Part shown: in pieces, positions 14,220 through 17,200 of the stretch
How the letters are laid out: every line of letters begins with the position of its first letter
How positions within the stretch are numbered: the stretch's first letter is position 1
Assembly (NCBI RefSeq): GCF_006345805.1
Contig: NC_043008.1
Location: 63,116,001 to 63,180,000, forward strand
DNA length: 64,000 nucleotides
DNA from: Octopus sinensis
Taxonomy: Eukaryota
Direction: 5' to 3'
Position numbers: made by a program

Positions 14220-17200
14220 TTTAAAATAGATTGATGTAACTCTTCACAAAGGTAAACAGTTGACGAAGAGCATGATTCAATTGTAAGAGATTTTATTAGT
14301 TGAACGATATTTCAACAGTACATCTGTCTTTGTCAAGTTCCAAATAAGAAGTGATAAAAATTGAAAATTACAGAAATTTAAGCGTAAAGTATGGACGAGA
14401 ACAACCAGCATCCACACGATGATGGAATGACATCATCAGTTTTTAAGTGTGTGTGTCTGTATTTGTCTCCATCACAGTTTGACAGCTGGTGCTGGTGTGT
14501 TTACGTCCTTGTAACCTAGCAATTCAGCAAAGATGACTGATAGAGTATCTGGCTGAACAAACAAAATTAAGTATTACTGTTGATTCATTCAGCTAAAAAT
14601 GTTTCAAGGTGATGCCCCAGCATGGCCACAGTCTCATGACTGACACAAGAAAGATAAAGAGTTATTTACTTTTGTAACAAATATTATCGTTCAAGTGATG
14701 GCGAAGTAAAGTGTGAGTCAGTTATTGGCACTTGTATGGTTAGAACATGTATGACAGTCTCTCATATTCTCTTGCATCATTCATAATTAATTCTAGGCAT
14801 TTGAATTCAACTTTTAAATTAGGCCTTCTTTTTCTTCTTATTTCCTATTTTTATGTCTTTTCTTGTAGGTTCATGAAGATAAATTTTACAATATTGAAGT
14901 GACATCTATGTGAGAAATTCTAAAGCTTTATCAAGAAAACCAGGATGAGAGCATTGGAGACAAATTGGTGCAGATAGCAATATTTAATACTCAAACTTCT
15001 TATCCAACAAATAAGTTTTGATTTTAATATTTTATAAGTAAATTTTATTGACTTGTCTCTAACAAAGAATATGCAAATTCCATTTAAGAATTTTCTTTTG
15101 ATTGGTTATCTTTCTTCATCTTTCAGACAGAATCTTAACAGGGAAAGACAATATTTTTCATTACTTGATTCATATTTCACACTTAAATGTCTTTTCCTTT
15201 CTTTTTTTCTCTTTCTATTTCATATTTCATTTTCAATTTAATTGAACTAAAAATATGGTTGGTGATGTCGATGGAGATTATAATCATACCTGAAAGATAA
15301 GCAAACCTAGAAAATATTGAATAAATCTATTAAGATCAAACAGTAAATATAGAGTTTTTCTTTTACAGCAACTAATTTAATTAATGTGTTGGATTTCTTA
15401 AAATTCAAACTTTTAAGAAATTTGGAATTTTATAATTCCAATGAAACCTACCAATTATAAAGAGGATTATTCTGGATTAAGTGAGAAACCAATAAGTAGA
15501 TTTTGCTGTCAGTCTTTGCTGTGTACTTTTAACACATTTATTGCCATATTTCTGTTGAAATATGCAGCCTTTGTTTCAATTGATTTTGGAAATCAACTTT
15601 TATCTTTTATGAGGGGTTGCTGAAAAGTTCCTGGCTTTATGGATATCATGGAAGACCTGGTTGGAGGTTCAACCTCCCGATTTCTTTTACAAAGCTTAGA
15701 AAAATTGAAACACCAGTGTAATATATGTATAGATCTGAAACAGGAATATTTTGAATAATATCATAACTAACTGATCCTATATATATTTATATATATATAT
15801 ATATATATATATACATTTTTTTATATATAGAGGGCATTATACATACATGCCAGAAGGCATTATACATACATGCCAAACGCTAAGAGGGACAATCAGTCAT
15901 TTCTACCAAAAATATTACTAATCCCACCGAATGCAATTTTTCAAAGTAAGACATTTAAAAATATAGACCTGTATCACAGTGATTTCATACTTATGTAATC
16001 ATCAGCAGGCCTGAATGTATTATAAATAAACAACGACCCTGCCCCGCTTAAGCCGATCAGCTAACTGATCAACATCAACGAAGCACATGGGTGAGTTTAC
16101 ATATACTACATCCGGATAAATGGCAAACTTTTACGAATTGCATTTCGGGAGAGGAAAAGTTTTTTCGGAATAAAAATTTAGCAAATAAGGACAACTACTT
16201 AATAAGGAAAACTTAACAAGAAATTGTCAGGTAGATAGCGTAAAAACCTCATAAGAGAAAAAATTTCGAAAATAATTATTTCTTATTGAACATATTAATT
16301 TATATATAGAGGGCATTATACATACATGCCAGAAGGCATTATACATACATGCCAAACGCTAAGAGGGACAATCAGTCATTTCTACCAAAAATATTACTAA
16401 TCCCACCGAATGCAATTTTTCAAAGTAAGACATTAAAAATATAGACCTGTATCACAGTGATTTCATACTTACGTAATCATCAGCAGGCCTGAATGTATTA
16501 TAAATAAACAACGACCCTGCCCCGCTTAAGCCGATCAGCTAACTGATCAACATCAACGAAGCACATGGGTGAGTTTACATATACTACATCCGGATAAATG
16601 GCAAACTTTTACGAATTGCATTTCGGGAGAGGAAAAGTTTTTTCGGAATAAAAATTTAGCAATTAAGGACAACTACTTAATAAGGAAAACTTAACAAGAA
16701 ATTGTCAGGTAGATAGCGTAAAAACCTCATAAGAGAAAAAATTTCGAAAATAATTATTTCTTATTGAACATATTAATTTATATATAGAGGGCATTATACA
16801 TACATGTCAGAAGGCATTATACATACATGCCAAACGCTAAGAGGGACAATCAGTCATTTCTATATATATATACATATATTAAAATCAAATTACAATGAAC
16901 GTAAACAAACAAACCAAGTTTGCTTTAGAAGCATTGAGATGTCTTAGAAAGTTAAAGAAGTGATATTAAATTCTCAAACGCAGGATAATGCTAATAATAT
17001 AGCCTGGACAGGATAAGCTATCCCTATTTTGCCAGCCACCAACACATTTGTCTGCAAAATAGGGGTAGCTTATCCTGTTCAGGCAATATATATATATATA
17101 TATATATGTATATAAAAAGGAAATGAAGAAAATGCTGACAAAATAATTTAAGTAATTTAAGTAATTTAATTAGGTGAAAGTTCTTTTTACCGGTTGCGCA

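What the first reader, a model, noticed from the sequence alone, without database searches (positions are those of the whole stretch)
15820..16863. Non-coding ~478-bp tandem repeat with one intact hammerhead ribozyme per unit (retrozyme-like)
Seen: near-identical head-to-tail units in (TA)n with no listed ORF. Each full unit has a minus-strand type-I hammerhead with a canonical CUGAUGA/GAAA core, a 6-bp stem I, a U-U closed stem II and an AUA cleavage triplet. Stem III (AUCAC-U-GUGAU) has only a 1-nt loop. Known: metazoan non-LTR retrozymes and Penelope pLTRs are tandem units with type-I hammerheads that often act as dimers, and retrozymes yield monomeric circular RNAs. Inference: a transcript would self-process into a 478-nt monomer, possibly a circRNA copied by a Penelope-like RT. 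I cannot tell whether this family is already described.
Basis: partly seen in the sequence, partly recalled or inferred. Interest (0 to 1): 0.9.

Follow-up and report, generated by a model that had tools for sequence, protein, structure and literature searches.

The report
Hammerhead-ribozyme tandem repeat (retrozyme-type)
A 478-bp non-coding unit repeated 2.2 times carries a hammerhead self-cleaving RNA motif in each full copy and looks like an animal "retrozyme", a known kind of small mobile element that makes circular RNAs, so it is a real but fairly ordinary find.

Summary
TRF finds a 478-bp head-to-tail repeat at 15820-16862, 2.2 copies, 99% identical, set in (TA)n, with no ORF of 90 aa or more. 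Each full unit carries, on the minus strand, a type-I hammerhead: CUGAUGA, GAAA, A15.1-U16.1, cleavage A17, a 7-bp helix I, a 3-bp helix II closed by U.U, and a palindromic helix III.

A motif this good arose in 0 of 300 window shuffles and with 0 of 539 decoy cores on the real sequence. Rfam support is weak: nothing at gathering score, and only copy 1 gives a sub-threshold Hammerhead_HH9 hit. The conserved G10.1-C11.1 pair is missing.

Helix III is unstable as a hairpin (-0.2 kcal/mol) but stable between two copies (-12.1), which fits a double hammerhead. The 478-nt monomer folds far better than shuffles (z -5.9). I found no Penelope ORF nearby.

Best reading: a non-LTR retrozyme-type element, a class described in 2020 with forerunners since 1987-2000. 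It is a new member of a known kind. Cleavage, circles, copy number and covariation could not be tested.

The parts
15820..16862 (-). Whole array: 2.2 head-to-tail units of 478 bp. Read in the ribozyme (minus) sense it is a 5'-truncated unit followed by two full units.
   Evidence: TRF; blastn; unit alignment. Edges are uncertain by about 10 nt because they lie in TA-rich sequence.
15820..16297 (-). Full unit 1 (478 bp, 33% G+C)
   Evidence: base counts
16298..16775 (-). Full unit 2 (99.4% identical to unit 1)
16776..16862 (-). Partial unit 3 (about 87 bp). In the ribozyme sense this is the 5'-truncated first unit; it has no hammerhead.
15965..16012 (-). Hammerhead copy 1 (48 nt). Helix I 16012-16006 pairs with 15971-15965; CUGAUGA is at 16005-15999; helix II loop is AUAA; GAAA; helix III is AUCAC-U-GUGAU; cleavage falls 3' of A17 at 15972.
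   Evidence: Rfam HH9 alignment at 16.9 bits
16443..16490 (-). Hammerhead copy 2 (48 nt). Same as copy 1 except that loop 2 is GUAA; cleavage falls 3' of A17 at 16450.
   Evidence: no Rfam hammerhead hit at E<=10
15972..16449 (-). Predicted 478-nt monomer released by the two cleavages. As a circle its MFE is -125.7 kcal/mol, with 64% of bases paired.
   Evidence: inference; cleavage not shown
15829..15875 (.). 23-nt direct duplication inside each unit; each copy is a small hairpin. It recurs at 16308-16354 and 16786-16829.
   Evidence: TRF
15778..15819 (.). Left (TA)n flank. It contains the 15-mer TATATATATATACAT at 15802, followed by T7.
16863..16880 (.). Right (TA)n flank. The same 15-mer starts at 16861, abutting the array edge.

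Best explanation
This is a short genomic array of a non-autonomous, non-coding retroelement of the animal 'non-LTR retrozyme' or hammerhead-satellite type.

Proposed working:
1. The minus strand is transcribed across the array (inferred).
2. The two hammerheads, 478 nt apart, pair through their palindromic helix III into a double hammerhead. [quoted passage not shown]
3. Helix I holds the two ends together, and a host tRNA-type ligase closes the circle (by analogy with PMC7229834).
4. The highly self-paired circle is copied by a reverse transcriptase primed at a nick in AT-rich DNA. The most likely enzyme is a Penelope-like RT/GIY-YIG. Going round the circle more than once gives tandem cDNA with a 5'-truncated first unit. 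That is the shape seen here: in the ribozyme sense, 87 nt, then 478, then 478, ending in the unit's own UAUAUAUAAA tract inside a (TA)n microsatellite (inferred).

Shown directly: the repeat, the motif and its non-randomness, the energies, the flanks, and the lack of coding capacity.
For: - Repeat: period 478, 2.2 copies, 99% identical.
- Core: complete hammerhead core with three helices in type-I topology on one strand of each full unit.
- Chance controls: 0 of 300 shuffles and 0 of 539 decoy cores give a motif as good.
- Rfam: among 4227 families, the best match to copy 1 is a hammerhead (HH9, 16.9 bits, E 0.041 in a 91-nt search). A second family of the same clan overlaps it, and the alignment reproduces the three helices.
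- Helix III: -0.2 kcal/mol as a hairpin against -12.1 as an intermolecular duplex. This matches the dimeric mode described for metazoan type-I hammerheads (PMC4209133 passages).
- Monomer fold: the circular monomer folds at -125.7 against -90.1 +/- 6.0 for shuffles (z -5.9, 0 of 100). The other strand gives z -4.2. There are 154 pairs, 19 of them G.U. Published retrozyme circles are likewise 'highly self-paired'.
- Class features: 33% G+C and no ORF or Pfam domain fit the class description of GC <50% and no LTR/PBS/PPT.
- Size: within published ranges, 51-972 bp consensus and the roughly 500-bp pDo500 satellite.
- Unit differences: the two differences in or beside the hammerhead fall in loop 2 and in the unpaired stretch 3' of helix I, not in helices.
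- Target: (TA)n and AT-rich targets are the reported preference of Penelope-type endonucleases.
Against: - No Rfam hammerhead model reaches its gathering score in the whole window, and none appears at E<=10 in a 1.3-kb search.
- Copy 2 gives no hammerhead hit even at E<=10 in an 81-nt search.
- The G10.1-C11.1 pair, called highly conserved in canonical and Penelope hammerheads (PMC4209133), is U.U here, and helix II has only 3 standard pairs.
- The monomeric hammerhead fold is not the MFE (-8.3 against -11.3 for copy 1; -9.1 against -11.1 for copy 2). The 66-nt region folds no better than shuffles (z -0.59 and -0.56).
- There is only one array and no other copy in 64 kb, so dispersal, copy number and covariation are unknown.
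- I found no Penelope RT/GIY-YIG ORF in the window. The only RT is an APE-type LINE fragment 8.5 kb away.
- The shared flank string that could be a target-site duplication occurs 8 times in the window, so it is weak evidence.
- A short tandem array could also arise by unequal exchange without any RNA step.
Confidence: 0.7

Rival explanations
1. Relic: the repeat descends from a hammerhead-bearing element, but this ribozyme no longer cleaves. The locus would be an inert short satellite, kept or expanded only by DNA-level processes such as unequal crossing-over or replication slippage.
For: U.U replaces the conserved G10.1-C11.1 pair and helix II has 3 pairs (PMC4209133 passage). All Rfam scores are far below gathering, and copy 2 scores nothing. 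The hammerhead fold lies 2-3 kcal/mol above the MFE. There are no other copies in the window.
Against: All invariant core nucleotides and the cleavage-site context are intact in both copies. The units are 99.4% identical, so the array is young. Many proven metazoan hammerheads are also unstable as monomers and act as dimers. The two differences in or beside the hammerhead spare its helices and core.
Confidence: 0.17
2. Penelope-like element remnant: the units are pseudo-LTRs of a Penelope-like element whose ORF has been deleted or was never copied. On this reading it is not an independent retrozyme family.
For: Type-I hammerheads, tandem arrangement and AT-rich/(TA)n targets are shared with Penelope-like elements. 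A 2026 preprint argues that animal retrozymes are derivatives of pLTRs.
Against: No RVT or GIY-YIG domain appears in 59 ORFs of 55 aa or more between 9 and 24 kb, nor in the 46 of 90 longer ORFs scanned window-wide, apart from a LINE RT. Units follow each other directly, with nothing between them. Penelope hammerheads are described as minimal, mostly lacking helix III and with a long helix II; this one has a 4-5-bp palindromic helix III and a short helix II.
Confidence: 0.08
3. Chance: an ordinary minisatellite in which a hammerhead-like string arose by accident.
For: CUGAUGA...GAAA alone is not rare: 4 matches against 1.68 expected, and 7 of 100 shuffles reach 4. The unit is rich in inverted repeats, which makes stems easier to find. 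Rfam does not accept it.
Against: 0 of 300 shuffles and 0 of 539 decoy cores on the real, structured sequence give an equal motif. The motif sits exactly where the known class has it, once per unit of a non-coding tandem repeat.
Confidence: 0.05

Closest known systems
Metazoan non-LTR retrozymes (Cervera & de la Pena 2020, PMC7229834; Li, Clavereau & Pollet 2026 preprint, 10.64898/2026.07.22.740005)
   Same: Non-coding, AT-rich head-to-tail units of a few hundred bp, each with one type-I hammerhead. No LTR or ORF. The monomer RNA is predicted to be highly self-paired. Helix III is weak, implying dimeric cleavage in some lineages. Short arrays are common: 75% of the vertebrate families have at most seven units.
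   Different: At 478 bp the unit is above the 170-400 nt emphasised in 2020, though inside the 51-972 bp range of 2026. Helix II is closed by U.U instead of G-C. Helix III is a longer palindrome (5+U.U+5 in the dimer) than the 1-2 bp described as usual. Expression, circles and genomic copy number are unknown here.
pDo500 satellite of Dolichopoda cave crickets (Rojas et al. 2000, seen only as cited; Martinsen et al. 2010, PMC2837043)
   Same: A tandem unit of about 463-505 bp with one roughly 49-nt hammerhead per unit. Single- and double-hammerhead modes are proposed. The hammerhead fold is often not the lowest-energy fold.
   Different: pDo500 is an abundant satellite with shown in-vitro cleavage and compensatory changes across 198 sequences. 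Here there is one 2.2-unit array with no comparative or experimental data. No sequence comparison was possible.
Newt satellite 2 / Schistosoma Sm-alpha type-I hammerheads acting as dimers (Epstein & Gall 1987; Forster et al. 1988; both seen only as citations)
   Same: Type-I topology, about 6-bp helix I and 4-position helix II, unstable palindromic helix III, tandem context.
   Different: Those carry the canonical G10.1-C11.1 pair and conserved loop-loop contacts, according to the PMC4209133 passages. Neither feature can be recognised here.
Penelope-like element pseudo-LTR hammerheads (PMC4209133; PMC8557442; PMC11167929)
   Same: Type-I hammerhead, tandem arrangement, dimeric action, integration into AT-rich or (TA)n DNA.
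   Different: No RT/GIY-YIG ORF lies between or beside the units. The ribozyme is not the minimal helix-III-less form with a 6-8-bp helix II.
Rfam Hammerhead_HH9 (RF02275, clan CL00010)
   Same: Best-scoring Rfam family for copy 1; the alignment reproduces helices I-III and the core.
   Different: 16.9 bits against a gathering score of 52. Copy 2 is not detected. It is not a member by Rfam's criterion.

Membership tests
Hammerhead ribozyme, type I | Invariant core: C3-U4-G5-A6-N7-G8-A9, G12-A13-A14, A15.1-U16.1, and H17 not G | tested here: met
   CUGAUGA, GAA, A-U and A17 are present in both copies
Hammerhead ribozyme, type I | Three helices around the core, with helix I open (type I) | tested here: met
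   Helix I 7 bp, helix II 3 bp plus U.U, helix III 4-5 bp. The Rfam HH9 alignment gives the same topology.
Hammerhead ribozyme, type I | Conserved G10.1-C11.1 pair closing helix II | tested here: not met
   U.U in both copies; conservation as stated in PMC4209133
Hammerhead ribozyme, type I | Score at or above an Rfam hammerhead gathering threshold | tested here: not met
   0 matches at gathering. The best is HH9 at 16.9 of 52 bits, for copy 1 only.
Hammerhead ribozyme, type I | Loop 1 / loop 2 tertiary contacts | tested here: inconclusive
   A possible internal loop and a distal 5-bp helix beyond helix I were read from the sequence. No conserved contact nucleotides could be recognised.
Hammerhead ribozyme, type I | Covariation in the helices across copies | not testable with these tools
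   There are only two 99.4% identical copies. No eukaryotic genome collection was available. The one genome-contig scan gave a single chance hit.
Hammerhead ribozyme, type I | Site-specific self-cleavage | not testable with these tools
   Needs a transcription and cleavage assay
Metazoan non-LTR retrozyme | Head-to-tail units of about 50-1000 bp, each with one type-I hammerhead | tested here: met
   size ranges
Metazoan non-LTR retrozyme | Non-coding, G+C below 50% | tested here: met
   No ORF of 90 aa or more; no Pfam hit for the 55- and 56-aa ORFs; 33% G+C. PBS and PPT motifs were not searched for specifically.
Metazoan non-LTR retrozyme | Monomer RNA strongly self-paired | tested here: met
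   z -5.9, 0 of 100 shuffles as stable, 64% of bases paired
Metazoan non-LTR retrozyme | Many dispersed copies or arrays in the genome, with target-site duplications | not testable with these tools
   One array in 64 kb. The candidate 13-15-nt duplication is a common microsatellite variant.
Metazoan non-LTR retrozyme | Expressed as linear and circular monomer RNA | not testable with these tools
   No transcript data available
Metazoan non-LTR retrozyme | Co-occurrence with autonomous Penelope-like elements in the same genome | not testable with these tools
   None in this window; the rest of the genome was not available
Penelope-like element pseudo-LTR | Repeats flank an ORF with RT and GIY-YIG endonuclease | tested here: not met
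   Units abut directly. No RVT or GIY-YIG in 59 ORFs between 9 and 24 kb. The only RT is APE-LINE type: none of its 120 listed relatives carries GIY-YIG, and 22 by my count carry PF03372.

The most novel reading that the evidence does not exclude
The array may be a fresh footprint of target-primed rolling-circle reverse transcription. On this reading, a 478-nt circular RNA was made by a natural hammerhead that works without the G10.1-C11.1 pair, using a U.U-closed 3-bp helix II and an 11-position palindromic helix III as an obligate dimer. The circle was then primed through its own UAUAUAUAAA tract on a nicked (TA)n microsatellite and copied 2.2 times round.

If so, this family would link the retrozyme circle sequence directly to the (TA)n preference of Penelope-type endonucleases. 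It would also widen the accepted natural hammerhead consensus.
Probability: 0.2. Interest if true: 0.5.

Novelty: new member of a known kind. Interest (0 to 1): 0.3.

Why it matters
If active, this locus adds one more lineage to the animal elements that make circular RNAs through a self-cleaving ribozyme. The ribozyme lacks a base pair usually treated as conserved, which is useful for defining how much variation natural hammerheads tolerate and for tuning search descriptors. Rfam missed it.

The clean junctions in (TA)n, and the 5'-truncated first unit, make it a convenient single-locus case for testing how retrozyme circles are primed and integrated. It does not open a new category: tandem hammerhead repeats have been known since 1987, and retrozymes since 2016-2020.

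Tried and rejected
1. Rfam at gathering score over the whole window gave 0 matches. At E<=10 over 1.3 kb there was no hammerhead. Only a 91-nt search showed a weak HH9 hit for copy 1; copy 2 gave none.

2. Looking for relatives. It gave 1 locus, in a gut MAG, with a 4-bp helix I and no helix II. About one chance match was expected by my estimate, so I rejected it. Copy number and covariation therefore stayed unchecked.

3. Literature string search for two 11-mers and two 15-mers of the ribozyme. The 15-mers occur in 0 papers, and the 11-mers occur only in unrelated papers. A search for 'hammerhead ribozyme' with 'cephalopod' found 4 papers, 2 listed, and neither describes such a repeat. Supplementary files, where retrozyme family sequences are usually given, are closed. 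So 'not in print' cannot be claimed.

4. The RT fragment at 6009-7334(-) as a possible Penelope partner. Rejected: its relatives are APE-endonuclease LINEs.

5. Target-site duplication. The same 15-mer lies on both flanks, but it occurs 8 times in the window, so this is left as weak. The short A-run at the 3' end in ribozyme sense (4 A beyond the unit's own AAA) is too short to argue for poly(A)-dependent LINE mobilisation.

6. Helitron-borne array. By eye, the array ends do not show 5'-TC or CTRR-3' termini on either strand. A weak helicase-like ORF lies 4 kb away, below Pfam cut-offs. Not pursued.

7. Other ribozyme classes or a second ribozyme on the plus strand: none at E<=10.

8. Taxon of the window: not determined. 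The best named relatives of the LINE RT are cnidarian and fish proteins at 45-67% identity, which only says 'animal'.

9. Complex prediction, structure prediction and the protein atlas were not used, because there is no protein in the feature.
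Full report
**1. What is there.** Tandem Repeats Finder reports one array at 15820-16862 with period 478, 2.2 copies, 99% matches and no indels. blastn of the first unit against the whole window finds only the three pieces of this array (100%, 99.4% and 98.8% identity). The next best hit is 20 nt at E 0.087. The two full units differ at three positions: a one-base indel in a T-run, a T/C and an A/T. Each unit begins with a 23-nt direct duplication. 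The unit has 33% G+C (base counts). No stop-to-stop ORF of 90 aa or more overlaps the array. The two ORFs of 55-56 aa that touch it have no Pfam match. (TA)n tracts lie on both sides.

**2. The ribozyme motif.** On the minus strand each full unit has a 48-nt segment, at 16012-15965 and at 16490-16443. Its parts are:
- a 7-nt 5' strand of helix I;
- CUGAUGA;
- helix II: UAC, a 4-nt loop and GUA, bracketed by U and U;
- GAA;
- helix III: AUCAC-U-GUGAU;
- A17;
- the 7-nt 3' strand of helix I.

All invariant core positions are present, the 15.1-16.1 pair is A-U, and the triplet before the cleavage site is AUA. Helix III cannot close on one nucleotide, so as a hairpin it is 4 bp with a 3-nt loop. 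The pair at 10.1/11.1 is U.U. A passage of PMC4209133 calls G10.1-C11.1 highly conserved in canonical and Penelope-associated hammerheads. Loop 2 is AUAA in copy 1 and GUAA in copy 2. The T-run indel lies in the unpaired stretch just 3' of helix I. So both differences in or beside the motif spare the helices and the core.

**3. Is it more than chance?** The bare pattern CUGAUGA-N6-30-GAAA is not rare: 4 matches against 1.68 expected, and 7 of 100 shuffles reach 4. I wrote a descriptor that also asks for the three helices and ran it three ways.
- On the real window, both strands, it finds only these two sites, even at very loose settings.
- On 300 dinucleotide-preserving shuffles of the window, 11 gave a hit at the very loose setting (helices of at least 4, 2 and 2 pairs). 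Two gave a hit at 5, 3 and 3. None gave a hit at the observed strength.
- Because the real sequence is richer in inverted repeats than shuffles are, I also kept the real sequence and replaced the core by 539 decoy permutations. Five of 539 gave any hit, and none gave one as strong as the true core.

The descriptor was written after seeing the site, and it tolerates the U.U pair. The two copies count as one event.

**4. Rfam.** No family reaches its gathering score anywhere in the window. No hammerhead appears at E<=10 in a 1.3-kb search. In a 91-nt search around copy 1, the best of 4227 families is Hammerhead_HH9 at 16.9 bits (gathering 52, E 0.041). A second family of the hammerhead clan overlaps it. 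The alignment reproduces the helices and marks the non-standard closing pair of helix II. The same kind of search around copy 2 gave no hammerhead at E<=1 or E<=10. By Rfam's own criterion the motif is therefore not a member, and the support from this source is weak.

**5. Energies.** The 66-nt regions fold no better than shuffles (z -0.59 and -0.56; 51 and 54 of 200 shuffles fold at least as well). The hammerhead fold costs -8.3 and -9.1 kcal/mol, against MFEs of -11.3 and -11.1. Helix III alone is -0.2 kcal/mol as a hairpin. Two copies pair through it as 5 bp, U.U, 5 bp at -12.1 kcal/mol. This is the arrangement described for most metazoan type-I hammerheads: an unstable palindromic helix III, inactive alone, active as a double hammerhead when a second copy is near (PMC4209133 passages; PMC7229834 abstract and results).

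**6. The monomer.** Cleavage at both sites would release 16449-15972, which is 478 nt. Folded as a circle it reaches -125.7 kcal/mol, against -90.1 +/- 6.0 for 100 shuffles (z -5.9, none as stable), with 64% of bases paired. The complementary strand gives -94.8 against -69.6 +/- 6.0 (z -4.2). The fold has 154 pairs, of which 19 are G.U. Helix I brings the two ends together in this fold. Published retrozyme circles are described as stable and highly self-paired.

**7. Surroundings.** Of the 90 ORFs of 90 aa or more in the window, I scanned 46 against Pfam. I left out by eye those lying in microsatellites or in the GC-rich array at 2.2-6 kb. Only one had a real domain: RVT_1 at 6735-7334(-). Read through, that region is a decayed RT with stops. 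None of its 120 listed relatives carries a GIY-YIG domain. By my count 22 carry the APE endonuclease domain PF03372, and many carry a PHD finger. It is therefore a LINE, not a Penelope-like element, and it lies 8.5 kb from the array.

Between 9 and 24 kb I also scanned 59 ORFs of 55 aa or more, after dropping low-complexity ones. No RVT or GIY-YIG domain was found. So at this locus the units do not flank a Penelope ORF.

**8. Ends of the array.** Read in the ribozyme sense, the array is a 5'-truncated unit (about 87 nt) followed by two full units. Its 3' end falls in the unit's own TA-rich tract, and both flanks are (TA)n. The 15-mer TATATATATATACAT abuts the right edge and lies 7 T before the left edge. 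It occurs 8 times in the window, so as a target-site duplication it is only suggestive.

Passages of PMC8557442 report a strong insertion bias of Penelope-like elements for microsatellites: (TA)n for Naiads, with the same bias hypothesised earlier for Neptune. PMC11167929 (abstract and first part of the main text) reports cleavage preference for AT-rich DNA by a purified Penelope-type protein.

**9. What is known.**
- PMC7229834 (abstract, first part of Results, whole Discussion) defines animal non-LTR retrozymes. [quoted passage not shown] - The 2026 preprint 10.64898/2026.07.22.740005 (abstract, first part of Results) gives consensus lengths of 51-972 bp. It finds at most seven units for 75% of families, and relates the retrozymes of Xenopus to Penelope pseudo-LTRs.
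- PMC2837043 (passages) describes the 463-505-bp pDo500 cricket satellite with one hammerhead per unit.

The kind is therefore in print. Whether this particular family is described I cannot tell. The strings of this ribozyme are not in the held papers, but family sequences usually sit in supplements, which are closed, and no repeat database was available.

**10. Mechanism and rivals.** I take the array to be a retrozyme-type element (0.70). The steps are transcription of the minus strand, double-hammerhead cleavage, ligation to a 478-nt circle, and target-primed reverse transcription more than once round the circle at a nick in (TA)n. Only the anatomy, the statistics and the energies are shown; every step of the life cycle is inference by analogy. 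The rivals are:
- an inactive relic maintained at the DNA level (0.17);
- a Penelope pseudo-LTR remnant (0.08);
- a chance motif (0.05).

**11. What stayed unchecked.** Copy number, dispersal, covariation, linkage to Penelope elements elsewhere in the genome, expression and cleavage were all untested. The only collection scan open to me covers bacteria and archaea and gave one chance hit. The taxon of the window was not determined beyond 'animal-like'.

**12. Verdict.** This is a new member of a known kind, of modest interest (0.3). Its mildly unusual traits are the missing G10.1-C11.1 pair, the long palindromic helix III, and clean junctions in a (TA)n microsatellite.

Noticed in passing
window 2349-6021: A GC-rich (48-50% G+C) complex tandem array with periods of about 273-331 bp and a 58-62-nt sub-repeat. 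My descriptor found no hammerhead in it.
   Followed up: partly
window 8693-9083: A 63-nt tandem repeat (6 copies) that is the reverse complement of the sub-repeat of the 2.3-6 kb array. The two blocks lie in inverted orientation around the LINE fragment.
   Followed up: no
window 6009-7334 (-): A decayed reverse-transcriptase fragment with in-frame stops. RVT_1 scores E 3.8e-25. Its relatives carry APE endonuclease and PHD domains, so it is a LINE, not a Penelope-like element.
   Followed up: yes
window 16997-17089: A 36-nt inverted repeat (92% complementary, 21 nt between the arms). A (TA)n tract directly follows its right arm, and it lies 130 nt to the right of the array. Possibly a tiny foldback or MITE-like insertion beside a TA tract.
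   Followed up: partly
window 57721-58931 and 19531-20797: Long, near-perfect inverted repeats: 236-nt arms at 99%, and 239-nt arms at 95% with 789 nt between them. They resemble foldback elements or terminal inverted repeats of DNA transposons. A decoy-core hit falls inside the first one and is not a ribozyme.
   Followed up: partly
window 40962-41515 and 31479-31662: A 184-bp tandem repeat of 3 copies at 90% identity, with a solitary 70%-identical copy 9.5 kb away.
   Followed up: no
window 11624-11938 (+): An ORF with weak, sub-threshold similarity to helicase C-terminal domains (Herpes_Helicase E 0.0049; UvrD_C_2 E 0.095). Possibly a Helitron-type remnant.
   Followed up: no
whole window: Very microsatellite-rich, AT-rich sequence (64% A+T). 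It has 56 (TA)n tracts of 10 nt or more, long (TAT)n, (CAT)n and (TAGA)n arrays, and no N. The taxon was not determined.
   Followed up: no
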